Source: Chiloscyllium plagiosum (Eukaryota). From it: a stretch of DNA of 64,000 nt. Position numbers and translations under genes: made by a program. The stretch is taken from the NCBI RefSeq assembly GCF_004010195.1, contig NC_057757.1, forward strand, positions 7,404,942 through 7,468,941, in the 5' to 3' direction. Positions 4,470 through 56,713 of this stretch are shown here, piece after piece (position 1 is the first letter of the stretch; every line of letters starts with the position of its first letter). Under the pieces are notes generated by a model, which made no database searches, was not told the origin of the DNA, and saw only the letters and a program-made list of their open reading frames with translations.

Positions 4470-4975
4470 ACCAACTTTTGTCGATGCCCCATTGAAAGAC
4501 TTCAATCTGGATGCATCACGGTTTCATATGGCAACTGCTTGGCAGGACCATAGGAAACTACAGAGAGTTGTGAAGACAGCCTAGTCTATCATAGAAATCA
4601 GCCTTCCAGCCTTGGCCCCATCTTTAATTATCGTTGCCTCAAGAAGGCAACCAACATACGACAACTGAAACACATGCACCAACAGCTTCAAGGGCAGCTT
4701 CTTCAGCGCTGTTGTCCGATGTCTGAATGGACTTCTCAGATTTTAAACATAAATGTTAATCTTCTTCTTTGTGCACCTCCTCTGCAATCTGCAGATTTTG
4801 CTGCTGCTCCTCGGATGCTGCCTGAACTGCTGTGCTCTTCCAGCACCATTGATCCAGAATCTGGTTTCCAGCATCTGCAGTCATTGTTTTGACCTCCTCT
4901 GCAGTCATGTCCTTGTATTCTTCACTCCGTTCTATTACCCTAAAGTACTTTGTCTGGTATGGTCTGCCTGTTCCA
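4470..4975 (+). mobile_element. Rex1/Babar-type LINE 3' fragment (another fragment at 24797-24990)
   Basis: QDHRKLQRVVKTA; second piece YHPVALTSIMRTCFVRLV. Confidence 0.6.
4787..4891 (+). mobile_element. Short Penelope terminal-repeat insertion
   Basis: Family motif GATGCTGCCTGA...CAGCATCTGCAG; TSD ACCTCCTCTGCA at 4775-4786 and 4892-4903. Confidence 0.75.
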
Positions 4976-4977
4976 CA

Positions 4978-5966
4978 CGTTCATCCTGGAGTACAGTTAC
5001 TAGTGGTGCACCGCAAGGGTCTGTTTTGGGACCTCTGTTGTTTGTCATTTTTATAAATGAAATAGATGACAGCGTAGAAGGATGGGTTAGTCAATTTGTG
5101 GATGACACTAAGGTCAGTAGAGTTGTAGATAGTGCTGAAGGATGTTGGAGGTTACAGAGGGACATAGATAAGCTGTGGAGCTGGGCTGAGAGGTGGAAAA
5201 TGGAATTTGATGTGGAAAAGTGTGAAGTGATTTACTTTGGAAGGAGCAAAAGGAATAAAGAGCATTGGGCTAATTGTAAGACTTTTGGCAGTGTGGATGA
5301 GCAGAGAGATCTCGATGTCCATGTGCATAGATCCCTGAAAGTTGCCACCCAGGTTGCAAAGGTTGTTAAGAACACAGACGGTATGTTAGCTTGTATTTGG
5401 AGAGGGACTGATTTCAGGAGCCATGAGGTCATGCTACAGCTGTACAAAACTCTGGTGTGGCCGCACTTGGAGTATTGCATACAGTTTTGCTCACCGCATT
5501 ACAGGAAGGATCTGGAAGCACTGGAAAGGGTTCAGAGGAGATTTACTCGGACGTCGCTTGGTATGCAGGGAAAATCTTACAAGGAAAGGCTGAAGGACTT
5601 GAGGCTGTTTTCTTTCGAGTGAAGAAGTTTGAGAGGTATCTTAATTGAGACATACCAGATAATCAGGGCGTTAGATAGGTTGGATAGTGATGGCTAGCAC
5701 GTGGGGGGCATAAATTTAAATTGAGGGTGATAGATATAGGACAGATGTCAGATGTAGCTTCTTTACTCAGAGAGTAGTAGGGGCGTGGAATACACTGCCT
5801 GCAACAGTAGTTGACTCACCAACTTTAAGGGCATTTAAATGGTCATTGGATAAATATATGTATGTTAATGGAGTAGTGTAGGATAGATGGGCTTCAGATT
5901 GGTTCCACAGATGAATGCAACATCAAGGGCCGAATGGCCTGTACTATGCTGTAATGTTCTATGTTC
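4978..5966 (+). mobile_element. CR1/HER1-type LINE 3' fragment
   Basis: GAPQGSVLGPLLF, FVDDTK, LEYCIQF; GTTCTAT tail. Confidence 0.9.
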
Positions 5967-17727: not shown

Positions 17728-18638
17728 TCAGCTATTTTGCTTCTTAAGTAACTGAATGATCCAAGTAACCGGATATTTCATTGTGCTTTCGAGCTGCTCT
17801 CTGAACCTAGACTGTGTGACTGCATAAATGAATGTATTTGTGCAGCAACTCATATTCCGCAGCATAAACCCAACTTGTTGAAGTATATATTCAGAATCAT
17901 TGTAATCTCCGGGATAAGTTGCTGTTATAATATAGTATAAGAAATCTATGACATTTACTAACCAAAGAACAATGAAGCTGCCGGATATGGTGAACAGTAA
18001 AATGATAGACTTCCTTCTACTCTCTATCTCTGGGTCTCTTTGATTCTCTGCCTTGCTTTGACCCCTCAGTCCCTTACGGATCCGATTGGTCACTAAAATG
18101 TGTCTGATGGTCAAACAGTTGAATAACAAAATCAAAGCGAATGTGAGAAATGGGGTTAAAATTGTACCAAACCAGTCAAAACCCAGCCACCCAGGGTCTG
18201 TATAATAACTTGACTTTGGGTGACAGTTCCAGGATACATTATTGATTATCCATCCAGGTTGAAGGATAAAGTAGAATGGGACATTTTTTAAACAGAGTAG
18301 GATGTAGATTGTTGCTAGAACCACAGTTGCAGTTTTCCTCGTGCAATATTTTCTTTTCAGCTTTTGGCAACAAATGGCCACAAATCGATCAAAGGAGAAA
18401 GCGATGGTGAACCAGACAGAATAGTCCATTGCTGCTCGACGCATGGCATAAGTGACACTACACACAGCGGTTAGGTCCAGGAATGTTCCCGGGAAATAAT
18501 AGTATTTGATTCTCCGCAGTATTACCTCAGTGATAATGACCAGGAGATCTGCCATTGCCATGGCCACCAGATAGTGAGTAGTGCAGATCGAGAGGCCACA
18601 TGTTCTTCTCGATAGGATCACAATTGCAATCAAATTAA
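17728..18638 (-). CDS. GPR139-like GPCR gene 1, exon 2 (TM1-TM7; spliced protein 325 aa)
   Basis: Polypyrimidine tract plus AG at 18639-18640; uninterrupted frame; motifs AMAMADL, FSFDRFVAICC, ECL2 Cys, CCTNTFIY, helix-8 SRFR. Confidence 0.92.
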
Positions 18639-19387: not shown

Positions 19388-19454
19388 CAGGAACTCCAAT
19401 AACAGCAAGGATCAGGTAATATATTTCAGCAACGCTGGAAAATATTTCACGCAT
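19388..19454 (-). CDS. GPR139-like class A GPCR gene 1, coding exon 1 (MREIFSSVAEIYYLILAVIGVP, start of TM1)
   Basis: ATG at 19454; 22 codons plus 1 nt; donor G|GTGAGT at 19387; phase-1 join to exon 2 gives GVP-V-NL. Confidence 0.9.
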
Positions 19455-19537: not shown

Positions 19538-19618
19538 TTTATACCCTGTGGAAATATCACGGGAATGTTGAGGTTGCAACATTGGTCTAATTGAATTTGC
19601 TTTTTACTTGAGCAAATA
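19538..19618 (-). promoter_or_regulatory. Proximal promoter of GPCR gene 1: TATAAA, O/E(EBF)-like site, homeodomain TAATTG, forkhead-like motif
   Basis: TATAAA on minus at 19538-19543, 84 nt upstream of ATG; TATCACGGGA(AT) 19555-19564; TAATTG 19588-19593; GCAAATA 19612-19618; same layout as gene 2. Confidence 0.55.
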
Positions 19619-20534
19619 GATCGTGCCATCGTGTGAAGTCAATGTTGTTGTTGAACAGGTGCATTTATGAGAATCAGTGATTGGAACCCTCCAAGGGCTG
19701 GAGAGTCGTGAATCATATTAATGCAATAATGACTTGAGCTTGTTCTTTCTGTCACCAACAGTCCCATCCCTCACTCTTATAAGCCCATAGGACCAGAAGT
19801 CACAGAAGTGGAAGTAAGCCCATTTGGTACATCAAGTCCACTCCTCCATTCAACCATTGGTGATAGGCCTTTCAACTCCCCTTACCACACTCTCCCATGT
19901 CTCTTAATTCCTTGCGAGATTAAGAATTTATCAATCTGTTGTTGCATTGACATCCCACACCAGCCTGATAAGGTCGCAAGTATTAGATTAAATGGGGCAT
20001 TTGAAATACGAGTTGGATTCACAGTTGGTGGAGATGAAGATGCAGGATTATGTGTATGTGTGTGTGTGTGTGTATGTTAGGTTTTGGAGGGTGGGTTGTG
20101 GAGAGGAGTGGGAGCCAGCTACATCATGCTTTGCAGCAAATGTCCCAGGCTCCAAAATCACAACCTGTGTAACTTAGAAGATCAACAGTGACAGACACAT
20201 GGGAACAATACCCCTTGCAAGTTCCCCTCCAAGGCACACACCGTCCTGACTTGGAACTATGCTGCTGTTCCTTTACTGTCGCTGAGTGAACATCCAAAAT
20301 TAGCACCACCCATACCCCCTCACATGCCTATCTAACAATGAGATGAATGTAAATAAGGCAGCTCACCACAATCTTTTCAAGATCAATTCAGGATGGACAA
20401 TTGCAGTTCTTGTCACCATTACTTACACCTCCTTTCCCTTCCACACTCTCCCTTGCAGTATCCACCTGTCTATCCCACTCACTCTCTGTCATTTCTACTC
20501 AGCCCTGTCACTCCCACTCAGCCCATGCCTACAC

Positions 20535-22630
20535 CATCCCTACAGGCAATGAGTTCCAGATTCCCAGCACCCTCTGGGTGAAAGCGTTTTTATTCCCACA
20601 TCTCCACTGAATCGGCTGCCCCTTACATTATATCAAAGTACACACCCCCGATCATTGACCTCTCCATCAAGCAGAAAAGTTTCTTCCTGTCCACCCTGTC
20701 TAATTCCCTCATAATTGGAAACATCTCAATCCTGTCACCTCTCAATATGCGCTGATCCAAGGAATCTGATACCTTCAGGGACCGGTGGACATACACACCA
20801 AGGTCCCTTTGTTTCTTGTTGCTTCCCAGGGTCCTACTGTTCATCATGTATTTTCTTGCCTTGCCAAGGGCATCACCTCACGTTTACCTTGACTGAATTT
20901 CATTTGTCGTTGACCAGCTCATTTGACAAGCCTGTGTTGTAGTCTCAGGCAATCTTCCTCTGTATTTAGCAGCTTGCCAACGTCGGTTTCATATTCAAGT
21001 CTGAATCATTTATAGAAAACACAAACAGAAATGGCCCAGACACTGACCCCATTGGACACAGATTTCCAGGCAAAGCAACACCAGAGCTCCATCACTCCCT
21101 GCGTTCTGCCAAGTCTGTGTCCAGTTTGGTAAACTTCCTTGAAACCCTTGAGCTCTTACATTTCCTATCAGTCTCCCATGTGGGATTTTAACAAAGGCCT
21201 TGTTGATTCCAAGTAACCTACATCAAAAGCATTGCCATCATCAATCCATCCAGTCAGCACTTTGAAACATTAAATCAAGTTGGTCAGACATGACCTCCCT
21301 TTAACAAAACTCAACTCACAGTATTGGACTAATCCCTGCCTCTTCAAATGCATATTAACTCTGCCCCTTAGAATTACTTCCAATAGTTTCCCCACCACAA
21401 ACGTTAGACTGACTGGTCTGTCATTTCCTAGTTTATCGCTTGCTCCCTTATTGAACGACAGCAGCGCATTGGCTGTCCTCCAGTCCTCCAGCACCGTTTC
21501 TATGGCCAGAGAGGAATTGAACATTTTTGCAAGTGCCCATGTTATTCTGCCCCTCACCTCTTTCAGCAGCGTGGAGCACATTTCATCAGGCCCTGGAAAT
21601 CTATCTACTTTTAAGCCTGCCAGAGCACTCAGAACCTGCATAGTGGCATGATGGCTCAGTCGTTAGCACTCCTGCTTCACAGCAGCAGGGACCTGGGATC
21701 AATTCCATCCTCGCACGACTGTCTCTGTGGAGTTTTCACATTCTTCTTGTTTCTATGTGCATTCCCACCCACAGACCAAAGATGCACAGGTTTGGGTGGA
21801 TTAGCCATGCTAAATTGTCCCTTGGTATCCAAGGATGCCTAGATGGGGTGAATGAGCCATGGGAAATGCAGGGTTTTATGGTAGGAGGTTGAGTCTGGGT
21901 GGGGATGCTCTTTGGAGAGTGCGTTTGGACATGTTGATTCGATGCAAACTCCACTCTGCTTACACTGATTTCTTCATGTGATTACTCTTGGTGCCAAAAT
22001 AGAAAGGGGGTGTGCCTCTGGGGAGGCTGGGAGTGAGGGCTGTTGGGAGACTGAGGATGAGAGTCTGCATGACTGAGAGTCAGGGTTTAGGGGAGACTGA
22101 AAGTGAAGTTTGTGGGCAGGCTGAGGGTGAGGGGTCTGGGGAGGGTCTGAGTGCTGGCTCTAGGCAGGCTAGGAGTAAGGGGTCTGGGAAGGTGGGTATG
22201 GGTGAGGCAGGGAGTGAGGGCTCTGGGGAGACTGGGAATGAGGGCTGTGTGCAGGCTGAGGGGGAGGGGTCTATGGAGACTGGGAGTAAGAAGTCTGGGC
22301 AGGCTGTGGGTGAGGAGTCCAGGGAAGCTAGGAGTGAGGGCTCTGGGGAATATCACAGACTTTCTCATTAATAATTATATCCGTATCATCCCTCTCACTT
22401 GTGAACGTTGACACAACATATTCATTTTGAACAATACCTATATCCTCTGACTCCAGGCACAAATTACTACCATGGTCTATAACTGGCCTTGTTCCTTCAC
22501 TTGTTATCATTTTACCCTTAATGTCCCTGTAAAACAATTGGGGTTCTCTTTTATTTTTACCTGTGTGCATGCTTTCCTCAGCTCTTCTAATTGAAGATCG
22601 CCCTTGCATATTCTAAACTACTCCAGGGCT
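20535..22630 (-). mobile_element. Fragmented CR1 LINE (paralogue at about 1950-3010), interrupted by a SINE and a minisatellite
   Basis: PGPD, DWRTAN, RPVSLT, GRSCLTNL; continues at 22370-22630. Confidence 0.8.
21980..22350 (-). repeat. Same minisatellite, inverted
   Basis: GGGAGTGAGGG periodicity. Confidence 0.8.
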
Positions 22631-29602: not shown

Positions 29603-32600
29603 CAGTAGGCTCGAGGCACTGACGACTGAACCCCTCCTTCTTCAAGGATAGCAAGCTATTGAATTCTTTTCAACTGAGTTCAGGGCTTTTTTAGATATTA
29701 ATTCAGGCTCGGCCAGTAGCCCATCTATCCTTTGAGAAACAACTAAAGCCTATGCTAGGGGGTTGGTTATTTCCTATTCAGCTAGTAAGAAGCGATGGAC
29801 GGGTGAACAGCAACGCTTGCTCGAGATGCGTCTGAAAGTAGCTGAAAAGGCATATTTTGACAGGCCCTCACTGGTTAAACCGCAGGGGATCACAGGACTT
29901 TGGGCGATGCTGAAATTCGTGATCACACAGACATCCAAGAGGGAATTAACATTTGCAAGTCAAAGTCTGTTGGAGCTCGGAGATAAGCCAGGCAAGTACC
30001 TCGCATACATTGCTAGGAAAAAGAGTGTTCCTCCAACTCCCCCCACACCCCCCCCCCACCCCACCCAGACCATTACCTCGATCAGAGAGGACACTGGAAA
30101 TTTGACCCACGATTCTAAAAGGATTAATGTAGCATTCTGGAAATTTTATTCTGAATTATACCAATTTGAAAGATGTGATTGTGGGTGGGTTAGGATAGAC
30201 TGCATTTTTTAAAAGAATTTGGACTTTCCGGGAATGACCCCCGAACAAAAGTCTCTCCTCAATGCCCCATTGTCAGAGCAAGAGGTGCAGGAGGCCGTGA
30301 GGGAGCTCCAGGCTGGAAAGGCGCTGGGTCCTCACGAGCTTCCCAATAAGTTCTATAAGGTATATTGTCAGGGCCGATGCTTAGTATGTTTAATGACCCA
30401 CATAGTCGTGGCCTCCTCCCACCATGTCTAAGAGAGAGACGAACATCCCTATCATTCTTAAAAAAGGGAATGCCCCAGAGGACTGTGCTTCCTGTGGACC
30501 CATTTCACTCCTGAATGTCGACTTCAAAATCCTATCCAAGACGCGGGCATTAAGGCTAGAAACTGTACTGCCCTCCATCATTAAGGAGGACCAGATGGGG
30601 TTCATAAAAGGTCACAACTAGACAGATAATGCCAGGAGATTACTTAACATGACCTAAGTATGTCAACATTGCAGGGATTGGTGATCTCCTTCGAGGTGGT
30701 AAAGGCATTTGACAGGGTTGAGTGGCCACATCTTTTTCATACTTTGAAGTGGTTTGGCCTGGGAGGGACCTTCATCAGGTGGGTGGAGGTTTTGTGTAGT
30801 GATCCTCTTGCTGCAGTCCTCACAAATGGTGTAAGATCAAGCAATTGTAATATTTGGAGGTGCAGTCGACAGGGCTGTCCCTTGTCACCATTTTCACATT
30901 GGTGATTGAACCGCTGGTGGAGGGAATATGCAAGGACCCCAATATAGCCATTCCAAGATGTGGGGATGAAGTCACATAAGATCGCACTGTATGCGGATGA
31001 CGTTCTTGCCTTTTTCTCAAACCCAGCAGTCTCAGTGCCACACCTGATACAATGCATGAATCTATTTTGTGCCTTCTTGGGTTATAAGATCAATTTTGCA
31101 AAGTCAGAGGCCATGCCCATGGGTGGTCTCCCGAGAGTGCCTGATCCTGAGGGCGGATCTTGATTCCCTTTTAGATGGTGACAGGAGGGCTTTCTCTACT
31201 TAGGTGTATTTATTATTGCCATTTTTGATCCGCTATTTAAAGACAATTTACAATCTCTTCATTAGGTCAGATAGCCCTCATTAAAATGAACATTCTGCCC
31301 CGTTGTATCCTATTTGATTAGATTAGATTAGATTACAGTGTGGAAACAGGCCCTTCGGCCCAACAAGTCCACACCGACCCGCCGAAGCGAAACCCACCCA
31401 TACCCCTACATTTACCCCTTACCTAATACGGGCAATTTAGTATGGCCAATTCACCTAACCTGCACATCTTTGGACTGTGGGAGGAAACCGGTGCAAACTC
31501 CACACAGTCAGTCGCCTGAGGCGGGAATTGAACCCGGGTCTCTGGCGCTGTGAGGCAGCAGTGCTAACCACTGTGCCACCATGCCGCCCACCATTTGAAT
31601 GCACCCTCTGCTTTTTACTAAGAAAATATTTAGAAGACTGAGCAACTGGTTTAGTTCTTTTATTTGATATCACAAGTGGTCCCTAATTAAATCGACTAAA
31701 TTGCAGCTACCTTACAGACTACGAGGAGCAGGCCTCCAAGATATTAAAACTATCAGTTATGCTTGTTGCTGTCTTACTTGAATGATTGGGCCGGGAAAAG
31801 GGTGGGGGGGAGGGGGGAATGCTGCTCACTCACTTTGGCTGCACATTGAAGCACCTCAGGTGAGATGCCCCCTTATTAGCCTGCTGTTCATAGACAAAAT
31901 GAGAACAGCTCACGAATATTGCCATAGCCCAATGGTTATTAGTACTGTCAAGGCGTGGAGGGCAATGGGTCAGGGTGAGGGCAATATTATCAAAACATCA
32001 TTTTTGACACCCACAAATGGTATGCCAGGCTTTAAACTATGGGCATCTAGGGGCATGTGTTGTTTGAGTGATTTATTCCAAAGAGGACATACTGATGTCC
32101 TTTGACCAGTTGGTCGGGAATATGAATTGCCCAGTAGGGACCTCTTTCCTTTCTTTCAAATTAGAAACTTCATACAAAAAGGGACTACACTTCTAACTGA
32201 TCCTTATAGGTCTGACATGGAGCAGAGAGTGTTGAGTGCTGAGGAATCATTATCTGTTAGCAACGCTTACTATCTATTGGGAGAGGGTCCCTTTGACGAG
32301 ACTGAAGGACTCCGTAAGGTATGGGAGAGGGAGTTGGATGTTGAGATCTCTTCTGAAATATGGGGGTTATCTGGAAAATGCAAGAAGAATCTCAGTTTGC
32401 AACAGGACCCACACCTTGCAACTGAAGATTCAACGCCGGGTCCACCTAGTCCCAGACTGCCTTGCTAATTTTAAATTGGGAGCATCTCCAAGGTGCCCAA
32501 AATGTAAACTGAGCATGGGGACGCTTACTCAATATCTTTGGTCCTGCCACAGACTGTGGACATACTGGAACGCTGTGGTAGGCGAAAGAGCGAAGGCCTT

Positions 32601-33222
32601 GAGGGCGGAGATGGAGATGGACCTGGTATCTCTTCTGCTTGGCTTTGTTAATTCACATTCGTTAGATGCACACACAACAAAAGGCTTTTCAGTAGCCTCA
32701 CTTTTTTGTGCCAGAAAGAACATTCTTTTAGGGTGGGTGTCAAAACTTCCTCCAGGGCGGGCAGTCAGGTGTAAGCTAGTCATGGAGCACATACTCTTGG
32801 GCTTTCTGATGAGTATGGTGCACCATCAAACTGAGAATTTCTCTAAGACATGGCAGACCTTTTTGGACTACAGGGGTACAGAGTAGTCTGCCAATACCAA
32901 TAAGAGCTTTTATATAGCCATGGCAATTCTATGTAATGAATCTGGTATCCAGAGGGGAGGAACTACGAACATATGAATATGTATGAACGTATGCACTCGA
33001 TGAGCAAGGGCTATTGTTTTGTTTTGCTGAGCTGTGTTATGGTTATTATCATTATTATTATTGTTAAGACTTTTATTTTTTAGCTTAGTTATTACTTGAT
33101 ATTTATTTATGTAATTAGCAGGTTTGTTTTTTAATGTTAGTGTGAACTAATATTAGTTTTGTGTTTGTTGTAATATTGAAAAGAAAAAAAATCATTTTTT
33201 AAATAGAAATACATTTTAAAAA
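29603..33222 (+). mobile_element. 5'-truncated L1/Tx1-type LINE (ORF2 remnant, 3' UTR, A-rich tail)
   Basis: PISLLNVDFKILSK, KAFDRVEW, RQGCPLSP, LYADDVL, C-terminal CPKC knuckle; TSD AAGAAYGCAGCT at 29591-29602 and 33223-33234. Confidence 0.9.
31314..31589 (-). mobile_element. HE1-type SINE nested in the L1-type LINE (internal deletion)
   Basis: Reverse complement of the consensus; (GATTA)n tail. Confidence 0.9.
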
Positions 33223-34552: not shown

Positions 34553-35614
34553 AAGTTTGTGAGAAGATTTGTAGCTCGGGTGCTCGTTATTGTGGTTCCG
34601 TTCGCCGAGCTGGGAATTTGTGTTGCAGACGTTTCGTCCCCTGTCCCCTGAGGTGACATCCTCAGTGCTTGGGAGCCTCCTGTGAGGCTCTGGGTCAGAT
34701 ATGTGAATGACACCTTTGTAATCATTAAAAACACAGAAATAGGGATCACACACTCCGCATCATCAACGCCACACTCACAGGAATCCGATTCACTAGAGAG
34801 GAAGAAAAGGACAACCAACTCCCATTCCTAGACGTGATGGTACAGAGACCACCTAACGGAGAATTCACCACAAAGGTACACAGGAAAGCCACACACACAG
34901 ACCAAGTCCTGAACTATGAAAGCAACCACCCCAATACACACAAACGAAGCTGCATCAAGACACTATCAAAAGGGCCACAACACACTGCAACACACCAGGA
35001 CTGCAAAAAGAGGAAGAAGAACACCTATACAATGTATTCGCCAAAAACGGATACCCCCCGCAATTTCATCAACAGATGCCTAAGGGAAAGACAACNNNNN
35101 NNNNNNNNNNNNNNNNNNNNNNNNNNNNNNNNNNNNNNNNNNNNNNNNNNNNNNNNNNNNNNNNNNNNNNNNNNNNNNNNNNNNNNNNNNNNNNNNNNNN
35201 NNNNNNNNNNNNNNNNNNNNNNNTCCACATCCATGAACACCAACTAGCCACGAAACGACACGACCAGCTATCCTTAGTAGCCACACACTCAGGTGACAAG
35301 CAACGTGAGTTTGACTGGGACAACACTACTATTATAGGACAAGCCAAACAGAGAACAGCCAGGGAATTCCTAGAGGCATGGCACTCATCCACAGATTCAA
35401 TCAATAAGCACATCGACTTGGACCCAATATACCGGCCACTGCAGCGGACAGCTGGAACTGACAACCGGAAGCGGCAGAGACAAACCACTATAAATGCTGG
35501 AGGAAACATCACAGAAGCGCTTCACAGGAGGCTCCCAAGCACTGAGGATGTCACCTAGACAGGGGACGAAACGTCTGCAACACAAATTCCCAGCTTGGCG
35601 AACAGAACCACAAC
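34553..35614 (+). mobile_element. Penelope-like element (Poseidon-type) with inverted terminal segment
   Basis: LPFLDV and HRKATHT RT thumb; GIY-YIG C-terminus REFLEAWH; 34555-34685 is an inverted copy of the 3' end; 13-bp TSD AACATCCTACCCA. Confidence 0.85.
35096..35223. other. Assembly gap (128 N)
   Basis: Run of N. Confidence 1.
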
Positions 35615-38245
35615 AACATCCTACCCATTTAACAGATTCACTTTGACAAATGTGCATTATGATTTGATTAGTTTTTGCCAATGTGAGGAGATTGATGTCA
35701 CTATGCTGGACTTTGTGTGGAACAAAATATTGAGAAAATATCGTAAAGGTGCAGAAAATACTAGCAGGCCATTAATGGCATAGTTAATTCAGATGTATTT
35801 ACCTCAGATTCACTGTTATTGGTGTTAACAAGTTATTACGGTTTCAGATCTGTCAACCTTTGTCCTTGTTTCTTCCTGAAGAGGTTAGCAAAGTCATCTT
35901 CCAGTGGTATCCTTTCAGTTTTTAAAGGAAAAATGTCATTTTGCATTTGTTTATCATTCCGCTTTTAAAATCATTGAATCATAGCACCCCGTGGTGTAGA
36001 AACAGGCCAATCAGCCCATTGAGCACACATTGACACTCTGAAGAGCATCTCACGCAGATCCACCCCCTTCCTCCGTATTCCTGCAATGCTACATATCCCC
36101 CTAGCCAATCCACCTAATCTGCACAGAGGCTGGTGCATGAGTGGAAATGATCTGACAGCAGAATTGGCAGAGACAGGTGCAACCACAACATTTAAAAGAC
36201 ATTTGGACAGGTACGTGAATGGGAAAGGTTGAGAGGAGTATGGGAGAAAGTGAGGACTGCAGATGCTGGAGATCAGAGTCGAAAGGCGTGGCGCTCGAAA
36301 AGCACAGCAGCATCCGAGGAGAAGGAGAGTCAACGTTTCGGGCAGAAGCCCTTTATCAGAAATGTTGGGTGTGAAGGGAGAGGAATGAAGGGGGCTGAGA
36401 GATAAATTGGAGGTGGAGGTGGGAGTGTGGGTGAGGAATCTGGAAAGGTGACAGGTAGGCGTAGCTGGGGAGTGATGTTGATATGTTGGAGGGCAGGGTG
36501 GAGCATATAGGTGGGAAGGAAGATGGACATGTAGGACACTTCAAGAGGGCAGTGCTGAGTTGCAGGTTTGGATCTGGGGTGAGGTGGAGGGAGGGGAGAT
36601 GAGGAAACTGCTGAAATTGACAATGATGCCATGTGGTTGAAAGATCCCAAGGCAGAAGACAAGGTATTCTTCCTCCAGGTGTTTGGTGGCTTGGATTTGG
36701 GGTGGAGGAGGCCCAGGACTTCCATGTGCTTGGCAGAGTGGGAGGGGGAGTTGAAGCAGTCAGCCACAGCGCAGTCGGGTTATTTGGTGCATGTGCCCCA
36801 GAGATATTCTGTGAAATAATCTGAGAGTTGGCGTCCCGTCTCTGCAATGTCGAGGAGACCACACCGAGAGCAAGGGACACAGTAGATGAGGTGGCTGGAT
36901 GTGCAGGAAAATCTCTGTAGCATGTGGAAGGAACCTATGTGGCTTTGGATGGAGGCGAGGGGGAAGTTGTGGGCACATGTTTTACACCTCTTGCTGCGGC
37001 AAGGGAAGGTGCCAGGATTGGGGGGGGGGGGCAAGGGGGAGGGGGGTGCATGAACCTAACGCAGGAGTCACAGAGGGAATTCTCTCTACAGAATGTTGGT
37101 GAGCATGGGGAGGGAAACATATCTCTGGTGGTGGGGTCTGCTTGTAGGTGGTAGAAATGTAGGAGGATCATGCACTGCATCCAGAGATTCGTTCGATGGA
37201 AGGTGAGGACCAGGACAGTGCTATCCTTGTTGTGGTTGGAGGGGTGGGATTCAATGGCGGAGATGCAAGACGTCGATGAGATTCCCTACAGGGAATTGCT
37301 AATCAAGTGGGAGGGGTATTTGCAGTGTTTGAAAGAGGAGGTCATCTGGGATGTCCTGGAGTGAAATTGTTCCTCCTGGGAACAGATACGATGGAGGCAG
37401 AGGAATTGGGAGTAAGGGAATGACATTTTTACAGGAGAGGGTGTGGGAGGACGTGAAGTCCTGGTAGCTGGGGGAGTCGGTGGACTTGATGTAGATGCCT
37501 GTGCTGAGTTGATTGCCGGAGATTGAGATGAAAAGGTCCAGAAGGGGACGGAAGCATCCGAGATTGTGCAGGTGATCTTAAGGTCAGTGTGGAAGGTGCT
37601 CGTGAAATTGATGAACTGTTCAACCTCCTCGTGGGAGCACGAGGTGGCACTGATACAGTCACCAATGTAGTGAAGGAAAATGCGGGGAATGCCAATGTAA
37701 TTAAAGAAGATGGAATGTTCCAATTATCCAACGAAGAGCCAGTCAGAGCTCGGGCCCTTTGGTTTGGAGGAAATCGAAGGATTTGAACGAGAAGTTGTTG
37801 AGGGTGAGGACCATTTCCACCAATCAAATGAGTTTGTCAGTGGAGGGGTACTGGTTTGGGTCTGCAGGAGAGGAAGTAATGGAGGGCTTAGAGGCCTTTG
37901 TCATAGTGGATGGACATGTAGAGTGACTGGATGTCCATGGCACTGAATGAGGCATTCACAGCAGGGAAAACAGACATCATGGAGGAGGTGGAGGGTGTGG
38001 GCGGTGTCCTGAATGTATTTGGAGCATTCCTGGACCAAGGGGGAAAGAATGGTGTGAAGATGTTAGGAGATACGTTCGGTAGGACAGGAGCAGGTGGAGA
38101 CGATGGGTCGATCAGGACAGTAGGGTTTGTGGATTTTTAGTTAGAGATAGAACTAGACGGTGCGGGATTCCTGGACTATTAGGTCGGAGGCTGTGGATAG
38201 GAAATCCCCTGAGGTGATGATGTTGTGGATGGTCTGGGAGATGAT

Positions 38246-38771: not shown

Positions 38772-39479
38772 ACCATGAATGTAACTGCAAACCAAACCAA
38801 AACCACTGTGGCGGCTGACCCCAGGATGGAAAAAAAGACTACACACAGGAGTAATTGTCACAAACGAATGTGGTAAATACATTGGAACAGCGATCCACAA
38901 TATGACATCAAATACAACAACAAGGGGATCAGCCACTGCTATTCCAATCAAGTAATGAGTTACACACTTGGAGAGAACGCACTTTTGGCGGGACAGGATC
39001 ATAATTGCCACCAAATTAACTGTGAGGGAAGGGCGTGAAATAGAAGGTAATATTTACAGATCAAGTCCAGTTTCAAAGAACAATGTGACAGAACCTAGGC
39101 CCAATTTGCAGGTTTACTGTTTCATGACAGGTGTAAATTGAATAATTAAGTGCTATCCTACAAATATATGTATGAAACACAGTTTACAACAGCATATTTT
39201 GGAATCCAAAGAACAAATGAATAAAATATGCCAACAAGGCTTATAGGTCATCATCAATGGTAAAATTAGTTCGCTACAAGAGTGAATGAGCAGATCTAAT
39301 AGCAACATTTAAATTCTAGGAGAGGTTGTTATTGAATCTATATAGTGGTAAATAATAAACATTAAGCAACGTAATTCGCACCATCAGGAATACTTAAAAT
39401 ATGAATTGCCAGGAACATTAATGGCAGAAAAAAGAGGAAAATAAATATCTTCTACCAGCCATACAACTGGATTTGCTAT
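38772..39479 (-). pseudogene. GPR139-like GPCR pseudogene, closest to gene 2 (exon 1 39410-39479; exon 2 remnant 38772-39019)
   Basis: ATA in place of ATG; GC in place of GT donor; +1 frameshift in a T7 run near 38830; truncated in TM3 by a Penelope element; intron aligns with the gene 2 intron. Confidence 0.9.
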
Positions 39480-42400
39480 TTAAACTTCAGTTGAATATCC
39501 TATTGGAAAATTGAACAAGCAACTTGTTTCAAATATTTTTATTAATCCAAATTTCAGAAAGAGTTACACATCCAGGCTTGGTGGTTTTAAGCAGTGCTCT
39601 TATTTTTTTTTCTTTCCCCCACACCACCGCCTAACACTAGTCGTGCTTATATTTTCCCCAGCATGCATAATGTGTGTGTGTATGTATGTGCAGGTGTGAG
39701 ACACAGTGGAAGACAACTGGTGTATATTCCTTTATTCCTTTTCCACCACCAGGAAGAAAGGAAGCACCTCAGTGGCCAGTGACAAATAATGCCCTTCACA
39801 TCTAAAGGCAATGCTGTGTGATCAGAAAAGTGAAGGGGTGGGCAGGGATGAAATCAAAATAGAGTTGGAGGGGTCAATAAAACACTCCACTCCCTGCAGT
39901 GCCCGTCTCTCCCTGAACAGCTCAAAGGTATTGGTAGACACTGCATATTCCTTCTCCAGGGACAACCGGCTCAAACGTAGCCACAGAAGAGGGAGAAGTA
40001 ATTGGTCATTACGACCCCTCCACAGCCCGCTGCCTGGACCTGTTTATAGCCATTCTGAGCAGTGTTCTATATTGGAGATGCCAGTGATTGTAATCAGCTC
40101 AGGGTTCACTTGATTTCAAAGACTTATCTTCCATACTTCCAGTTCGCTTACCCTGTTCTTGAAACCTGTTCAAACAAAAATCAAAATAAAAACATACCCA
40201 TGGTGGCTCAGAAAGAAACCCAGTGGGTTAGGAATACCCACACAACACATCTGGCCATGTACGAATTGGGAGAGATGGTTTCAAAGTGTCAACAGAATAG
40301 TTAACTGTTGAGGGGAGGAGTGGGGGGAGCAGAACCCAAGACATCAGGTGGGTTCATATCATACTTCCACGTACTCTGTTCAAAAACTGTCAAAACAAAT
40401 CTTCCAACAATCTCAAACTGGCATTTTGAATCTCAATTTCCTTAAAAAATGTTCTAGATCTTTCTTTCAACGCCACTTTCAAAATGAAACAAGTATCCTG
40501 ACAAAACATTTCTCATGACAATTTGAGGTCAAACTGGGTGTCTTGCAAAAGAGGTTTAAAGGTGTTCTGAGGACAAGCTAAACTTCTTTTGTTCACATCT
40601 TTTCTACAGTATTTATAAGAAAAAATACTATTTTTCAGCTTTGCAGTGATGCTTTCAGGCGACTCCCTATGTTAGTACTCATTTCAGCTGAAGGTGAGGG
40701 TGCTGTCATTGTAACCTGCATAGGAAATCTCTTTGAGTATGATGCAATTTTCATAGAGAGCTTCTTTCAGTTCACTAGGGGAAAGGGACTTGTGGGTCTC
40801 TTCCTCAGCTGTTCTGAAGCATTATACTTGTTTGTCCACCCGTTCCAGCTCCTGAGTGACATTACACACTGGTTTTACCTCTCTGCACTGAGGTGGAATA
40901 GTTGGGGAAACACTAACAACTCTCTTGCCTTGTTTTGCAAGATAACAGCCCCAGTTGATGGCCGCTCTCGGATTTCTCGCTCGCGTGTTGTTTGATATTC
41001 GTTAAATCAAGGGAGAAGTCCATCTCATCATCAGCCCCAACATTAACGTCCACTTGGAACAGCTGTGATACAAGAAGCATTCAGACATATTCAGAAATTC
41101 GGAAAATAACAAAATTTAAAAATGAAAATATATCCATCTATCCCACTTCAAGCAGAATGGGTTAATTAGTCCATGTACCTCTGATTCATAAAACGTATTG
41201 CATATAAAATCTAAATGCTCTGAGCTGATGCAATAGTCTTTTGGACATAATTATGTCAGCACCTCCCTCTTCCTCCTGGTGAGGAGATAAGGGCCATGTG
41301 TTATATTTGCTTTCTAGGTGAGGAAATAGTTTACTTCCTTTGTGTGAGTTTACTACTTCAAAGCCTTTTCTCAGATCTTAGCAGTTGGGGAAACACTCAA
41401 AATTCCAATTTTCCTTATCTTTCCAGAGCTCAGATACGCAAAAGAAACATTCATAGATCATACAACTTCGAACAGTCCATCGAGACTAGCCAATTGTATT
41501 ATCTGGAATTAAAGATTCACTCACAGTTTTCAAAAATATTTGGACACTCTCTCTGCCCACAGATGGCAATTTTACAAGCAGTAACCTAGTTACAAAACTC
41601 TTGAAATTTACTTTTTACTCAGGACTCTTCCCATAAACTAAATACGAGAGGAAATAAGTTCTGGCATCATTTCCTCGCTTCAATTGGATTCACACAACTG
41701 CATATAATTCCTGAGGATAGTCATACCAAGCCCTGAAGAAAGTAATTCCACGCCAATACTCCCTAGTAGGCTTTTTTGAAAAAAATATAATTTGTGGGAT
41801 GTGCTTGTCACTGGCTTGGGCAGCGTTTATTGCTCCTCCTTAGTTGTGTTTGAGAAAGTGACCAACTCTCTCCCAGGGTGAAGACATTCCTTCTCTTCCA
41901 TCATTGAGGATGGGGATATTTGTGGAGCCACCTCCTCCAATGTGGCAGGATTGGATCTGATTCGTTAGCTTTGCCCTGTCTGGTGCTGATGGCAAGTAGT
42001 CTTGTTTGGTAGATTCACCAGGTGGGCACCTAAATTTCAGGTTTGGCCGGTGCTACGCCTGGCATGCCGTGCTGCGCTCTCCATTGAACCAGAGTTGATC
42101 CCCCTAATTTGATGATTGAGTGTGAGATATGCCAGGGCATGAGGTTTCAGATTGTGCTAGTTCAGGTGACATAACCGCTGATCGTTTCTTAAAGATTGAA
42201 TTAAGGTTACCCCCTCTGAATTTACCAGAGTCTCTGGAATAATAGTTCACTAACAGCGCCACCAGACCACCTCATCCCCTCCAGTCTGGACTGGTCATCA
42301 AACATCTCGTCTAATCTCCCTTTGCAGCATCTGCTCTGAAACCATGCATGTCATGTCATTTCAAATGCTCACCTGAGTCCTTTTTAAATCTGTTACAGGG

Positions 42401-44320: not shown

Positions 44321-44584
44321 AGCCTGAAAAACATTAATCACTTGCCTCATTCTGTAACCCTGTTTCTTTGCAGACATTTAGTTCAGGCTAAAATCTGCAG
44401 TTTGAAATATACAAGGAACCGTTAAGAAGATTACTGAAGTTTTATGAAACTCGTGGAATTTGTTTACAATCAGCCTTGTCCTGAAAGCTGTTTCAGGCCT
44501 TTTGCCACAGTCCTGATCTATAATTCCAAAGTTGGCCATTTTTTCCCATCATGCAATGTTAAATGAAACCCACAATACCCCACA
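44321..44584 (-). repeat. ERV 3' LTR (truncated; U3 part only)
   Basis: Follows polypurine tract AAAAGGGGG (44588-44596); begins TGTGGGGTATTG; direct repeat of the 5' LTR. Confidence 0.85.
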
Positions 44585-44599
44585 TGTCCCCCTTTTGTC

Positions 44600-45840
44600 T
44601 ATTATGACAATCACTTATGTAGGCACATTGAAAATCCGATTGAAAATGCATTGGCACAAGCAAACAAGTAACACTATTCCTACTAGCATTAGTACCATGA
44701 CCGAAAAAGACTTTAAAGAAACTATCAAACAATCCGTGACCCAACCAACTCAGTGGGCTATAATCATAGAATTCCCTGCCAAGGTCTTGTATGTGGTCAG
44801 CATGTTGCTTAATATGTTCAGCTCGGTTGGTGATATTTTCAGAGGTATCTGGAATATAGGTACAGCACTCCTGACCCACAACAGCACATGCTCCCCCTTG
44901 CGAGGCTGGCAGATAATCCAAAGCCAGTCAATTCTGAAATGCCACTGTCCAAACAGCCACCAGCTCAGCTGAGACCGCAGTGCTTGTCCAGTTGCCTTGG
45001 TTTCCAAAGTTGTCTCATTGGCCAGGTGTTCCAGTGTTGAGGCTGTGTGAACCAATTCGCCGGATGCCCGGCCTATTCTTTGCAACAGAAAGCACAACAA
45101 GAGGGACTGGTCTCGCAGTTCGTGGATAGTAGTGCTTAAGGGAGTTCAGGTGATGCATATAGGGTACAACATAACCTGGACAGAGGATCCTATCCAACTG
45201 GTAGGAAGCCATGTGTACGCTTTGTTGCTGCATATAAGGTATGTGCCATTGTAAGCTGTAAAGTCATCAGCAAAAGGCATCCAAGGCTGTGTGGTGGAAT
45301 GGGCCCATGGACTATCAGATGTAATATTCCAGATCCAGGTCCAATCACAATTAAACATCCCATTTCTTGAAATATTGACTACTGGACCTTGCCAGTCAAA
45401 TGTGAGAGAATATTTGCTTTGCCCCAAGAGCATTCCTTTTCTAAAGCATTGCGATCCTGTGGCATTATTCAAATGGTCTGTAAGGGAAGGAGGAACTGAG
45501 TTGTGATTATATGTGGGCTGATACCATGTCGAAAATGTAGTCATTTCATTACCTGCCGATTTCCATAACCTCAATTCCCCATTAGACCCTGTGTGATTTT
45601 GTCGTAACATCCACTCAACTGTTTATGATATAGGAAGGGGTTGAAGAGGTATTTCTTCCATTGAATGGATGGGGATATGGATACAAACCCAACACCTACT
45701 TATATTTAATTTCTCAGCATACATACATGACATACGTAAATAGATGTTTACATGCAGTTCCTGAAGAGGCTGGTTTGTTAATATCAAATGTTCACTGTTC
45801 AAAAAGTCCAAAGAGTACCAAAATGATGTTCATGCTGTGT
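44600..45840 (-). pseudogene. env: ERV env remnant (gamma-type)
   Basis: CWVC motif in SU; RTAR cleavage-like site; ISD-like VAFQN*LALDYL; CX6CC (CAVVGQECC); stops and frameshifts. Confidence 0.85.
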
Positions 45841-46870
45841 CATCGACCGGTTGAGGAGAAATATGATTCCAATCAGATAGATGGACCCAATTGCAAAGTC
45901 CTTCAATTTTGACTGAGGTTGGGTGTTGCTAGTAGCACTTGAAAGGGGCCACTCCAGTGGTGTCCTAATTAGTTTCTTTCCCAATTCTTGACCAACACAT
46001 AATCCCCTGGGTTTACTCGTGGATACTGGGATGCGATCATGTTTTCTTCATCTGGCAATGCGATTGGTGGACCTGCAACTGAAGAAACTTCAGAGAAAGT
46101 GTTAATTGCTTTAAGTAATTCTGCAATTGCTCACCCATTACGTGGAGATCTATGGCCTTTAGGGTTTCAGTATGAACATCCCACAGAGTCCTCATTGGCA
46201 GACCATAAACTATGTCTGCAGTTGATCGTCCGGTCCGTCAATGTGGAGTCACTAGCATGTGAAAAAGTGCTAAGGGAAAAGCTTTGAGCCAATTTAACCT
46301 CTTTTCTTTGACTAATTTAGATGAGTTTTCTTTTAAGGCACTGTTAGCCCGTTCCACAGTCCCCGCTGTCTGCGGAAGATGCACGCTGCTGTTTAATTGA
46401 AAGCGTTTCAGTAATTCAGCATTGATTGTGGCCCATTGTCTGAGCTTATCATTTGATGTAACCCAAAGCAGGGAATAACTTCAGTTAGCAATATTTTTCA
46501 CTACTGTATGTGCAGAACAATTAGTGGGGAAGTCTTCAATCCATTTCCTAAATACATCGACCATCACTAAACAGTATTTATAACATTTGTACCAGGTAAT
46601 TCAATAACATTAAGATGTATACAAGCAAAAGGACCATCTCGCGGGGGGTAGTCGTGGAAGGCCAGTTAATACCTTTGCCTTACCTATGCAAATAGGGCAT
46701 CGATCTCGCCACATTTGAGCTGCTGTATTCAAATCTGGGTGCCATGAGGCTTTAAAAAAATGCTGTACCGATCCTTCCTTGCCATGTTGGGTACAATTGT
46801 GCGAGTAATCAATACGCACTGGTAACAAAGAATCAGGAATACAAACCCGACCCACCGGTGTTAGCCAGAC

Positions 46871-46947
46871 TCGGAGATGCCGGTGTTGGACTGGGCTTCC
46901 ATTTAAACCTGTTGGGACTATAACCTGGTGTTGTGTGATTTTTAACT
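46871..46947 (+). mobile_element. 77-bp Penelope-end insertion in ERV pol
   Basis: TSD GTGTTAGCCAGAC at 46858-46870 and 46948-46960; matches 865-907. Confidence 0.8.
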
Positions 46948-47780
46948 GTGTTAGCCAGACGTCTCGTGTCGAGGAATGCGAACATCCCATCCACCTCCAA
47001 AGTGCACATTCAGATTCAGAGGTGCTTCTCTGTAAAGTTTAAATTGCAGTTAGATCTTCCATGTCCTTTGTCCCTGAAGTAGCTACTTGATTTCGAGCCT
47101 GATTCCTGTTAGTTGCACCAACTAAAATGGCTGATGCAGCAGTCTCCTTAGCAGCCGAATCAGCATGGGCATTTACTCATTGTACCGGAGTGACAACTTT
47201 CGCGTGCGCAGTACATTGAATAACAGCCAATTGATGAGGAAGGCGAATAGCATTGAGGAGATTTTCAACCGAAAGAGCATCTTGAATGGGAGTCCCCGTA
47301 GAATCAAGGAAGTCTTGCGGCTGCCAGAGGCAACCAAACTCATGGACAACACCGAATCAGTATAAATGTTAGCAATTTTATCAACGAAGTGAATGCAAGC
47401 TCTAATGAGGGCAAAAACATTGGCTTTCTATGCAGATACAGGGGTCTGAAAAGCAGCAGACTCTTGAACAGCAGTGTCTGCTGCTATAACATAGCCTGGC
47501 TGCTGGACACCGTCCAGGGAAACAGAGGACATTCCCAAAAATACGAAGCATGAGTTCGAGATTTTCCAATGGGAAGACTGCCAAATCCAGGCAAGGTACA
47601 GTAAGTAAGTGAATCCTAAGCAACCAGTCATGGGGTGGGAATCAGGAAGATCGTCAGGAGGTTGCTCAAGGAATGTAGCAGGATTCAAATTGGAGCAGGA
47701 GCGAAACGATGGGTAAGGCTTCTGCAACAGTGGGATCTCAGGACTAGCTTAGCTGACGTGTTGGGTCTGCTGAGACCATG

Positions 47781-48114
47781 AAACCATAAGACATAGGAGT
47801 GGAAATAAGGCCATTCGGCCCATCGGGTCCATTCCACCATTCAATCATGGCTGATGGGCGTTTCAACACCACTTACCCGCACTCTCCCTGTTGCCCTTAA
47901 TTCCCTGCAAGATCAAGAATTTATCAATCTGTGCCTTGACGACATTTAACGTCCCGGCCTCCACTGCCCCCGTGGCAATGAATTCCACAGGCCCACCACT
48001 CTCTGGCTGAAGAAATGTCTCCTCATTTCCGTTCTAAGTTTGCCCCTTCTAATGGGTCCTAGTTTCCCCACCGAACGGAAACAAATTCCCAACATCCACC
48101 CTTTCTAAGCCATG
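47781..48114 (-). mobile_element. CR1 3' fragment inserted in ERV pol
   Basis: CR1 3' UTR; CCATG at both junctions. Confidence 0.75.
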
Positions 48115-49083
48115 CTTCGACGTGAGGAAGGTGACAACGGAGTGCGAGATGTACACCAGTACGGGCTGGTGAATGGTCAGATTAGAGGCTGCCTGTTACT
48201 AACAAGTGGGCAACGTTTCGGAGTTGAATGCGGGGAGGGAGACCACAGGCAACAGGATCCAATTGAGTGGAATAATAGGCTACTGGGCGATGACGGTCAC
48301 CGTGCTGGTCACTTAGGACACCAGTGGCTCGTTCATCTGGTACATTAACATAAAACTGAAAGGATCGGTCAAATAGCGGGCGGCCTTTGAGGGCATTAAC
48401 TGACTGCATGGCCGAGTCAGACAACTGAAATTTAAGGGGAGCCTTCGGAGAGGAATAAGGAGTTCGGAAGCCACTGCCTGCAAATTTGTCCAGCCCCAAA
48501 ATGGCTCTCATCCTTTTGGGTGAGTTGGGGCAAGATTTGTAAGATGGGGCAATCCACTCCTGAGTAAGGGAACGGTCAGTAGGACTAATTAACACACCCA
48601 AAGATTTAAGCTGTGATTGACCTTTATGAACCTTAGTGGTTGGGATCACATATTCTCACGAATGGAGATGTGTGATGAGGTAAACAGTGTTCTGCCGGTC
48701 ATTAACCAAATCAGGGCTAGCAAGAAGTATCTTTCTCAGCCCTAGCATCTTTACAGCGTTTTTGCCTGAATCACTATTCACCTTTCATCTACTCCTCCAC
48801 AGTCAGCCTTTAACTTCTCCCAGCTCCTGCACATCTGTCTGTCCATTCTCAAGTACATTATTCCTCCAACTGGCCAAAAAGGCATTTCTCTCTTCACTGT
48901 CTGCTTTTTTTTTGTCATTCTTTAATTAATAATTTCTACTTTTTCCTGTAGGTTCTGTCTTAAATTAGGCTCACTGCCTGCTCACAAACGGCTACATCAC
49001 AGGCCCCCCTACCATCCTGACCTGCACAGAGGATACAGAACACTCATTTCATACAGAGTTGCAACTTGCTTACAATAGCAATC

Positions 49084-54626: not shown

Positions 54627-55555
54627 TCAGTTCCCGGGTTTCAAGCCCTTCAACCTGTTCCATGACTTAGCGATTCGCTTGAAAGGGTATATCATGGCAT
54701 TCTTCAGCTGTTCCCTGAATTTAGCCTGAATCACAGCGTAAATGCATGTGTTGGTGCAGGAGCTGAGCAGTTGCAGCATCTTTGATGTGCGATCTGTGAT
54801 GAAGCAAGGATCTGTAAAGGAAGAGTAATCTCGGATATCAGTAATACGTGCGTAAATGTTGTAAACAACCTGGGTCACCCACAACAGCACAAAACTGCCT
54901 GATATACTGAAGAGCAAAACAATGGACTTCCATCGGTTTTCCATCTCTGCATCCTTGTGCTTCTCTCCATTTGTTTGACCACGGAGACCCCTACGGATTC
55001 GACTACTCACTAAAATACGCCTGACAGTCAGCACATTGAACAGCAAGATCAGAAAGAATGGCACACAAGGGGTTAAAATGTAGTTGATCATTTCAAACGC
55101 AGCCCACGCAGGAGAATTGAAGAAACTCGGCTTACGGGCACAGCCCCACGGAATATTGTCAATGATGTATCGTGGTTCATAGATAAAGAACCAGGGTACA
55201 GACTCCAGGGAGCCCAGCATGGTCACAGTCCCGAGAAATGCTGCTGCAGTTCTCTCGTTGCAAAATCTTGTTTTCACCTTCTCACAGCAAATGGCAATAA
55301 ATCGGTCAGCGGTGAACGTGACTGTGAGCCAGACAGAAACCACTGTGGCTGCTGATCCCAGAGCAACAACAAGACTACACACAGGAGTAATGTTCACGTA
55401 GGAACGTGGTAAATAAATTGGAATAGTGATCCTCAATATGGCATCAAAGACAACGACAAAGTGATCGGCCACTGCCATTCCAACCAAGTAATACGTTACA
55501 CACTTAGAGAGACCACACCTTCCTCGGGATAGGATCACAATTGCGACAAGGTTAA
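54627..55555 (-). CDS. GPR139-like GPCR gene 2, exon 2 (spliced protein 332 aa)
   Basis: AG acceptor at 55556-55557; open frame; motifs GMAVAD, TADRFIAICC, SCTNTCIY, AKFR; clear paralogue of gene 1. Confidence 0.92.
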
Positions 55556-55947: not shown

Positions 55948-56017
55948 CTGGAACACCAATGGCTGAAATGAGAGGAAAGTAAACGTCTTCTATTTTCCAT
56001 ACAACTGGGTATGTCAT
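55948..56017 (-). CDS. GPR139-like GPCR gene 2, coding exon 1 (MTYPVVWKIEDVYFPLISAIGVP)
   Basis: ATG at 56017; 23 codons plus 1 nt; donor G|GTAAG at 55947. Confidence 0.9.
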
Positions 56018-56103: not shown

Positions 56104-56178
56104 TTTATACAGAGGAGAAATCTCTGGTGATATAGTTACACTTGACACCATTATTAATTACACTAACTTAAACAAACA
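56104..56178 (-). promoter_or_regulatory. Proximal promoter of GPCR gene 2: TATAAA, O/E-like site, TAATTA, forkhead-like motif
   Basis: TATAAA on minus at 56104-56109, 87 nt upstream of ATG; TCTCTGGTGA 56121-56130; TAATTA 56155-56160; ACAAACA 56172-56178. Confidence 0.55.
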
Positions 56179-56713
56179 CATTGCATCAACAGCTTTGCCT
56201 CTGGTCTAAGCAATGTTGGAAAAACAGAAGCATCTCAAATTCAGGAGGTTATCTTAGTTACACCATTATGCAATGAAGCTAAAAGTACTGGCAAAAAAAA
56301 GACTGACCTCATAATCAATAAACAGCTTCATTTACAGTTTCTCTGAAAGAAAGAGCCTTTTGGGGCTCTGCAAGGTAGACTGATTCCAGAGACACAGATT
56401 CATTCTGTTCCTGCAGATTCCCAATTAAAAATGCAAACTTCAATTCTCGAAAGGACATTGGCGTTTCTCCGTCCGTTTGAGGACTTTGTCCACTGAACTG
56501 ATCTTTGGTTACATGTACAGGACATCCCACGAGGTAAAGGCATCTGTAGAGTTCAATGTCTGACAGCCAGTTGGTGCAGGAAAGATTTAGAAGTTATTTT
56601 TTAACTTAGTTTAGGATTCATATGCAAGTTGGAAATTTGCAGATGTACAAATTCTAACTCAAAAACTCAACTCCAGTGCCAGAGTATGACACTTAGAAAC
56701 AATTATTTAGTCT

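What the first reader, a model, noticed from the sequence alone, without database searches (positions are those of the whole stretch)
19538..19618. Spacing-conserved TATA / O/E-like / homeodomain promoter module shared by both intact receptors
Seen: TATAAA lies 84 and 87 nt upstream of the two ATGs. An O/E-like decamer starts at the same offset from it in both genes (TATCACGGGA at 19555; TCTCTGGTGA at 56121; each 8/10 against TCCCNNGGGA). TAATTR follows 33 and 34 nt further (19588; 56155), then an RYAAAYA forkhead-like motif. I could not align the two introns or other flanks. Established: paired O/E (EBF) and Lhx2-type TAATTR sites are typical of vertebrate olfactory receptor promoters. Inference: olfactory-neuron-type regulation, which independently supports a chemoreceptor role. 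The O/E matches are degenerate and there are only two examples.
Basis: partly seen in the sequence, partly recalled or inferred. Interest (0 to 1): 0.8.

Follow-up and report, generated by a model that had tools for sequence, protein, structure and literature searches.

The report
Smell-gene-like promoter of shark receptors
Two shark receptor genes carry worn copies of a short promoter shared across a very large, little-studied receptor family; its main word likely binds the factor that switches on smell-receptor genes, so the family may be overlooked smell receptors, but expression in the nose is untested.

Summary
Alone they are weak: g1 has 3 and g2 has 2 mismatches to the published O/E consensus. 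The family test rescues the module. An exon-1 pattern hits 1,458 places in this genome (control 0). In 24 of 48 TATA-anchored promoters an O/E-like site starts 17-27 nt before the TATA box, peaking at 21-23 (background 3%). The consensus departs from O/E at one position, and 0 of 67 promoters match exactly. A forkhead-like word near -70 is also positioned (12 of 37). Shark V2R promoters are also O/E-enriched (7 of 18 within one mismatch); protocadherin promoters are not (0 of 16). EBF is not nose-specific, and no start site, binding or tissue was shown. Olfactory-neuron expression is about even odds. The scan noted this family and promoter idea before on other DNA of this genome.

The parts
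19538..19543 (-). g1 TATA box (TATAAA), starting 89 nt before the ATG
   Evidence: family TATA-ATG distance median 84, quartiles 75-91
19554..19565 (-). g1 O/E-like element in family register, -22 from the TATA start; decayed (3 mismatches to the published consensus)
   Evidence: 13 of 67 promoters vs 7 of 767 background windows
19588..19593 (+). g1 homeodomain-type TAATTG, -50 from the TATA start, on the strand opposite to the gene
19608..19619 (-). g1 forkhead-like word, variant of the family word TGTTTGTTCA
19388..19454 (-). g1 coding exon 1 (22 codons plus one base, GT donor)
17728..18638 (-). g1 coding exon 2; predicted spliced product 325 aa, rhodopsin-family 7TM
56104..56109 (-). g2 TATA box, starting 92 nt before the ATG
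56120..56131 (-). g2 O/E-like element, -21 from the TATA start (2 mismatches to the published consensus)
56133..56138 (-). g2 decayed homeodomain site (TAACTA) directly beside the O/E element; TAATTA in the close paralog L052
56155..56160 (.). g2 homeodomain-type TAATTA, -51 from the TATA start
56168..56179 (-). g2 forkhead-like word
55948..56017 (-). g2 coding exon 1 (23 codons plus one base)
54627..55555 (-). g2 coding exon 2; predicted spliced product 332 aa; 48% identical to g1 over exon 2
38777..39481 (-). third, broken copy of the g2 type: exon 1 lacks its ATG and GT donor, exon 2 is cut short, and no TATA or O/E module is recognisable

Best explanation
This stretch is likely the proximal promoter of a very large shark GPR139-like receptor family, inherited by gene duplication and likely kept by selection, with a predicted EBF (O/E) site placed about 22 nt before a TATA box. 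Shown: the word order (forkhead-like near -70, TAAT core near -50, in some clades a TAATTR beside the O/E site, O/E-like at -23..-21, TATA) recurs in clades whose proteins are 40-74% identical. Inferred: EBF binds next to the basal machinery, helped by forkhead and homeodomain factors, and transcription starts about 25-30 nt after the TATA box. Inferred, about even odds: the cells are olfactory sensory neurons, probably microvillous, each using few family members. g1 and g2 carry weakened copies and would be expressed at low frequency.
For: Family size: 1,458 exon-1 pattern hits vs 0 control; the best 120 of 1,949 homologues that were listed are all from sharks and rays. Position: 24 of 48 TATA-anchored promoters have at most 2 mismatches to the published O/E consensus at -27..-17, vs 3.1% of 3,308 background windows; 0 of 300 permuted consensuses reach 24 (mean 2.3, max 14). 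The top de novo motif is a pyrimidine run followed by GRR, median -107 from the ATG, LL 132 vs 29-39 in 3 shuffled sets. Rival motifs fit worse: Ikaros 2, RP58 2, RBPJ 2, STAT 0, NF-kB 14 of 48. Motif-first searches retrieve the family: 20 of 30 listed loci and 16 of 20 have a family exon 1 downstream; the adjacent homeodomain-O/E word occurs 370 times vs 1 control. Controls in the same genome, -200..-40 from the ATG, at most 1 mismatch: family 12 of 67 (shuffle mean 1.6), V2R 7 of 18 (0.3), protocadherin 0 of 16 (0.4).
Against: 0 of 67 promoters match TCCCNNGGGA exactly, and the family has T instead of G at position 7 in 24 of 38 aligned sites. g1's site (3 mismatches) is no better than 17% of background windows. 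TAATTR at -56..-45 is found in only 4 of 37. A composite-plus-TATA pattern gave 4 hits vs 10 control. Whole promoters of random family pairs barely align (mean z 0.60 vs 0.34 upstream). Promoters share descent, so the p-values are inflated. V2R promoters lack the family's TGTTTGYY word (0 of 18 vs 19 of 67) and carry their O/E site further from the TATA box. No read at 95% or more identity to g1 in RNA runs X5 or X6, whose tissue is not on record. The catshark top-50 'brain and olfactory epithelium' genes include no GPCR (PMC11979771, passage).
Confidence: 0.6

Rival explanations
1. The module is a real EBF-forkhead promoter, but it drives expression outside the nose: brain or other sensory neurons (as for GPR139), gut or skin sensory cells, or immune and stromal cells.
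For: GPR139 is expressed in habenula, striatum and hypothalamus (PMC12208981, abstract start). EBF acts in B cells, fat cells and many neurons (own knowledge). The forkhead-like and TGTTGYAA words are absent from V2R promoters, and no forkhead or C/EBP term occurs in the main text of the mouse OR promoter study. Single-cell run X5, tissue not on record, holds 99 reads like family paralogs.
Against: A family of over a thousand copies in clusters with many broken copies resembles chemoreceptor repertoires (inference). An adjacent homeodomain-O/E word recurs in several clades. V2Rs share the O/E enrichment. The X5 reads are few and were not shown to be spliced.
Confidence: 0.27
2. The -22 element is functional but is bound by a factor other than EBF; its likeness to O/E comes from a pyrimidine-purine palindrome.
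For: No exact O/E match in 67 promoters. Systematic T at position 7 and a consensus that also reads TCYC-NNT-GGAGA. An NF-kB-like pattern fits 14 of 48.
Against: 10 of 11 consensus positions agree with the published O/E consensus. One clade has near-canonical sites. Permuted consensuses fail.
Confidence: 0.08
3. The shared words are inherited leftovers of duplication with no current function, at least in g1 and g2.
For: Both window sites are decayed, and g1's two closest paralogs share the decayed form. The 370-copy word comes largely from one recent expansion.
Against: The words keep their place across clades with a median 52% protein identity, while flanks do not align. The broken copy in the window lacks the module (one case).
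Confidence: 0.05

Closest known systems
Mouse odorant-receptor promoters (Young et al. 2011, PMC3247239; passages and a Table 1 row seen)
   Same: O/E sites enriched near the start, homeodomain words, TATA boxes in a subset.
   Different: The shark O/E site sits at a near-fixed -23..-21 from the TATA box, departs at position 7, and comes with a forkhead-like word. The genes are not ORs (Pfam 7tm_1 and Srx only).
Greek Island Lhx2/Ebf composite motif (Monahan et al. 2017, PMC5608512; passages and supplements 2 and 7 seen; J element, PMC7804114, passages)
   Same: TAATTR directly beside a degenerate O/E site at constant spacing in several shark clades.
   Different: In mouse it marks distal enhancers rather than promoters. 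The one published probe I saw has a 1-nt gap; the clearest shark clade reads with a 2-nt gap. It is absent in g1 and decayed in g2. The logo itself could not be seen.
Shark V2R/OlfC promoters (this genome, C13 cluster; olfactory expression shown in catshark, PMC10116579, passages and sections 7 and 13 read)
   Same: TATA box and O/E-like enrichment within 200 nt of the ATG.
   Different: Their site keeps the GGGA half, mostly lies further from the TATA box, and has no TGTTTGYY word.
GPR139 (PDB 7vug, 9m42)
   Same: Best solved-structure match, E 6.6e-11; NCBI gives the family this name.
   Different: The match is distant (45 bits). [quoted passage not shown]

Membership tests
OR-type promoter (O/E + homeodomain) | O/E-like site enriched near the start | tested here: met
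   24 of 48 vs 3.1% background; 12 of 67 within one mismatch vs shuffle mean 1.6
OR-type promoter (O/E + homeodomain) | Canonical O/E sequence TCCCNNGGGA | tested here: not met
   0 of 67 exact; 9 of 48 within one mismatch
OR-type promoter (O/E + homeodomain) | TAATTR homeodomain site enriched | tested here: inconclusive
OR-type promoter (O/E + homeodomain) | Start site just downstream of the TATA box | not tested
   No reads on g1 itself in the RNA runs laid; no 5' end data obtained
OR-type promoter (O/E + homeodomain) | EBF and Lhx2 binding; activity in olfactory neurons | not testable with these tools
   Needs gel shift, CUT&Tag, reporter or in situ data
Greek Island composite motif | TAATTR adjacent to O/E at fixed spacing, in g1 and g2 | tested here: not met
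   Absent in g1, TAACTA in g2
Greek Island composite motif | The same in other clades, with the mouse spacing | tested here: inconclusive
   TAATTR-N7-GGAG-like spacing in 13 of 14 listed cases (search limited to 6-9 nt); compared with only one mouse probe
Greek Island composite motif | Lies in an intergenic enhancer | tested here: not met
   Lies 274-531 nt before the exon-1 donor in 16 of 20 loci
Odorant receptors (OR) | OR-specific Pfam family and MAYDRY motif (motif recalled) | tested here: not met
   Only 7tm_1 and Srx; FSFDRF and FTADRF
GPR139 orthologues | One-to-one orthology in a tree with GPR139 and GPR142 | not tested
   My tree held only family members; best PDB match at 45 bits

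The most novel reading that the evidence does not exclude
Sharks have an unrecognised olfactory receptor family of over a thousand GPR139-related genes that was recruited into smell neurons through an EBF/homeodomain/forkhead promoter, overturning the view that sharks smell with a few dozen V2Rs.
Probability: 0.4. Interest if true: 0.93.

Novelty: new variant of a known kind. Interest (0 to 1): 0.7.

Why it matters
Cartilaginous fishes are reported to have very few olfactory receptor genes despite a keen sense of smell (PMC10116579; 34 V2R/OlfC genes and 4-9 in each other family in catshark). A family with at least 1,458 exon-1 hits and an O/E-type promoter gives a direct test: probe shark olfactory epithelium for it. 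If positive, it adds a vertebrate smell-receptor family and shows the same promoter logic recruited to an unrelated receptor lineage. If negative, a huge receptor family with a defined promoter still needs a tissue and a ligand.

Tried and rejected
RNA: no RNA holder was listed for g1; this blank is no evidence either way. Laying X5, X6, X7 and X1 on g1 gave 99 paralog-like reads in X5 (none at 95% or more), 0 in X6 and 31 contigs in X7. One read end matched 22 copies of a subfamily whose mapped copies lie on C9. Splicing, start site and tissue of these reads stay open. The catshark tissue tables could not be read and may bear directly on expression. A Cell 2014 enhancer paper that I recall naming forkhead and C/EBP motifs in OR enhancers is not held, and a search for it found nothing, so that link is unverified. 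The composite-plus-TATA pattern was not enriched (4 vs 10). An octamer-plus-TATA pattern meant as an immunoglobulin control was too loose (4,604 vs 787) and was dropped; it shows that the reversed control can run about six-fold low, so the 126 vs 12 rests on the locus check. Three motif-first hits (L165-L167) lie in retroelement sequence and are chance. Ikaros, RP58, RBPJ and STAT were rejected as the -22 factor (RBPJ, STAT and NF-kB patterns recalled). Literature: searches listed no paper describing this family; most subscription papers are not in the library. One search gave no useful EBF paper.

Full report
Observation. The finding concerns two minus-strand genes, g1 (ATG 19454) and g2 (ATG 56017). 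Each has a short coding exon 1 and a long exon 2; the predicted spliced products are 325 and 332 aa. On the gene strand the order is forkhead-like word, TAATTR, O/E-like site, TATA, ATG. The forkhead spacing differs by 6 nt between the genes. An 8/10 match to TCCCNNGGGA occurs at 0.34% of window positions, so the pair alone is weak evidence.

The genes. Both are rhodopsin-family receptors (Pfam 7tm_1; no OR family hit). The best solved-structure match is GPR139 at E 6.6e-11. A protein search found 1,949 homologues; the 120 listed are all from sharks and rays, mostly named 'probable G-protein coupled receptor 139', the closest from Chiloscyllium punctatum at 96%. In the window's own genome an exon-1 donor pattern hits 1,458 places against 0 for the control. 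This is not a gene count: it may include broken copies and assembly duplicates, and it misses variants such as g2.

Family sample. I found 176 exon-1 donors in 259 loci, and none in the reversed sequences. Of these, 122 have the short N-terminus of g1 and g2 and at least 300 nt upstream. I dropped 16 that had been found by the motif itself and reduced the other 106 to 67 representatives. That filter removes only near-duplicates. The 46 of 67 with exon 2 in hand are 40-74% identical in protein, median 52%. All share descent, so p-values overstate the case.

O/E test. A soft TATA anchor was found in 48 of 67 promoters; a few anchors are probably wrong. Against the O/E consensus printed in PMC3247239 (TCCCyngrgar), 24 of 48 have at most 2 mismatches starting at -27..-17, peaking at -23..-21. 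The background rate is 3.1% of 3,308 windows, and none of 300 permuted consensuses reaches 24. A rough de novo search put the same element first. The family consensus is T-C-Y-C-N-N-T-G-G-A-G-A from 38 of 48 aligned sites, with T at position 7 in 24; 0 of 67 match the canonical decamer. g2 has 2 mismatches and g1 has 3, a level that 17% of background windows reach. The window genes are thus decayed members.

Other words. TATAWA occurs in 34 of 67 against 78 of 767 background windows. The forkhead-like word lies at -82..-62 in 12 of 37 strictly anchored promoters against 31 of 2,411; the forkhead label is recalled, not from a matrix search. The loose pattern TRTTTRY is also in 5 of 16 protocadherin promoters, so only its position is telling. 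A second homeodomain site directly beside the O/E element, with 7 nt between TAATTR and the GGAG core, is seen in a C44/C12 clade, in the large long-N-terminus class and in g2's paralog L052. The long class shows the forkhead-to-O/E module in 21 of 48 examined. One exact form of the adjacent word occurs 370 times against 1 control, and 16 of the 20 loci cut have a family exon 1 downstream. g2 has TAACTA at that place and g1 has nothing. The one mouse composite probe I could read has a 1-nt gap (PMC5608512 supplement 7); the clearest shark clade reads with 2. A composite-plus-TATA pattern was not enriched (4 vs 10).

Controls in the same genome. I fetched 20 V2R-type and 20 protocadherin starts and located the ATG in 18 and 16. 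In -200..-40 from the ATG, promoters within one mismatch of O/E number 12 of 67 for this family (shuffle mean 1.6, max 6), 7 of 18 for V2R (0.3, max 2; 4 of 11 after removing near-duplicates) and 0 of 16 for protocadherins (0.4). So the shark's established smell-receptor family shares the O/E enrichment and another clustered neuronal family does not. The match is not complete: V2R sites keep the GGGA half, mostly lie further from the TATA box and lack TGTTTGYY (0 of 18 vs 19 of 67). One negative control family is a thin base.

Expression. No RNA holder was listed for g1. Single-cell run X5, tissue not on record, gave 99 reads like paralogs and none at 95% or more; X6 gave none. One read end traced to a 22-copy subfamily whose promoters also carry the forkhead-like word, a TAAT word and a TATA-like box. 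These reads were not shown to be spliced. Start site, binding and tissue remain untested.

Mechanism. Shown: the recurring words and their positions. Inferred: EBF binds at -22, forkhead and homeodomain factors help, and transcription starts shortly after the TATA box. Inferred at about even odds: expression in olfactory neurons. In catshark nearly all of these are microvillous, and known receptors label 0.45-5.94 cells per mm each (PMC10116579, passages and sections 7 and 13); the total neuron density was not in what I read. The main rival is EBF-driven expression elsewhere, since EBF factors are widely used (own knowledge) and GPR139 is a brain receptor (PMC12208981).

Papers seen. PMC3247239, PMC7804114, PMC3247230, PMC11979771, PMC12208981 and PMC12294341: passages from term searches. 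PMC11643329: one passage. PMC5608512: passages and supplements 2 and 7. PMC10116579: passages and two sections. All others: search listings only. Searches listed no description of this family; unseen supplements, above all the catshark tissue tables, may bear on expression.

Earlier notes. The scan reported this family and an olfactory-like promoter on other pieces of this genome. They agree with my reading, which I had recorded before looking, and are not independent support. The eight short notes listed mention neither the V2R and protocadherin controls nor the forkhead-like word.

Verdict. This is a new variant of a known promoter type on a very large, apparently undescribed receptor family. 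Interest 0.70.

Noticed in passing
window 38777-39481 (-): A third, broken receptor copy of the g2 type; it keeps a TTGTTCAA word upstream but no TATA or O/E module.
   Followed up: partly
loci L081-L110 (G000 C1, C3-C5, C7): The largest class of the family has a longer N-terminus with tandem 14-residue repeats (MDQNLRTLDWNVPT-like) of varying number, and weak or variant TATA boxes.
   Followed up: partly
loci L319-L338 (G000 C13 V2R cluster): Shark V2R promoters have a TATA box about 50-80 nt before the ATG and a recurring YYYY-NN-GGGA word (9 of 18 vs 10 of 287 background windows).
   Followed up: partly
loci L260-L283 (G000 C9, about 86.0-86.4 Mb): One subfamily accounts for the largest pile of family-like reads in single-cell run X5; a 30-letter read end matches 22 copies.
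   Followed up: partly
window 44559-48655 (-): Broken reading frames that look like envelope and pol pieces of an endogenous retrovirus (likeness judged by eye).
   Followed up: no
window 4753-5622, 21270-21662, 29736-32886, 34729-35558, 36356-37836: Fragments that look like LINE and Penelope-type retroelement reading frames, plus one 128-base assembly gap at 35096-35223.
   Followed up: no
G000 C48, 21 kb and 45 kb beside g1 (L002, L003): Two recent g1 paralogs (93% and 90% protein identity) lie just outside the window and share g1's decayed O/E form.
   Followed up: yes
locus L269: A duplicated exon 1 without its promoter lies inside the intron of one C9 family member.
   Followed up: no
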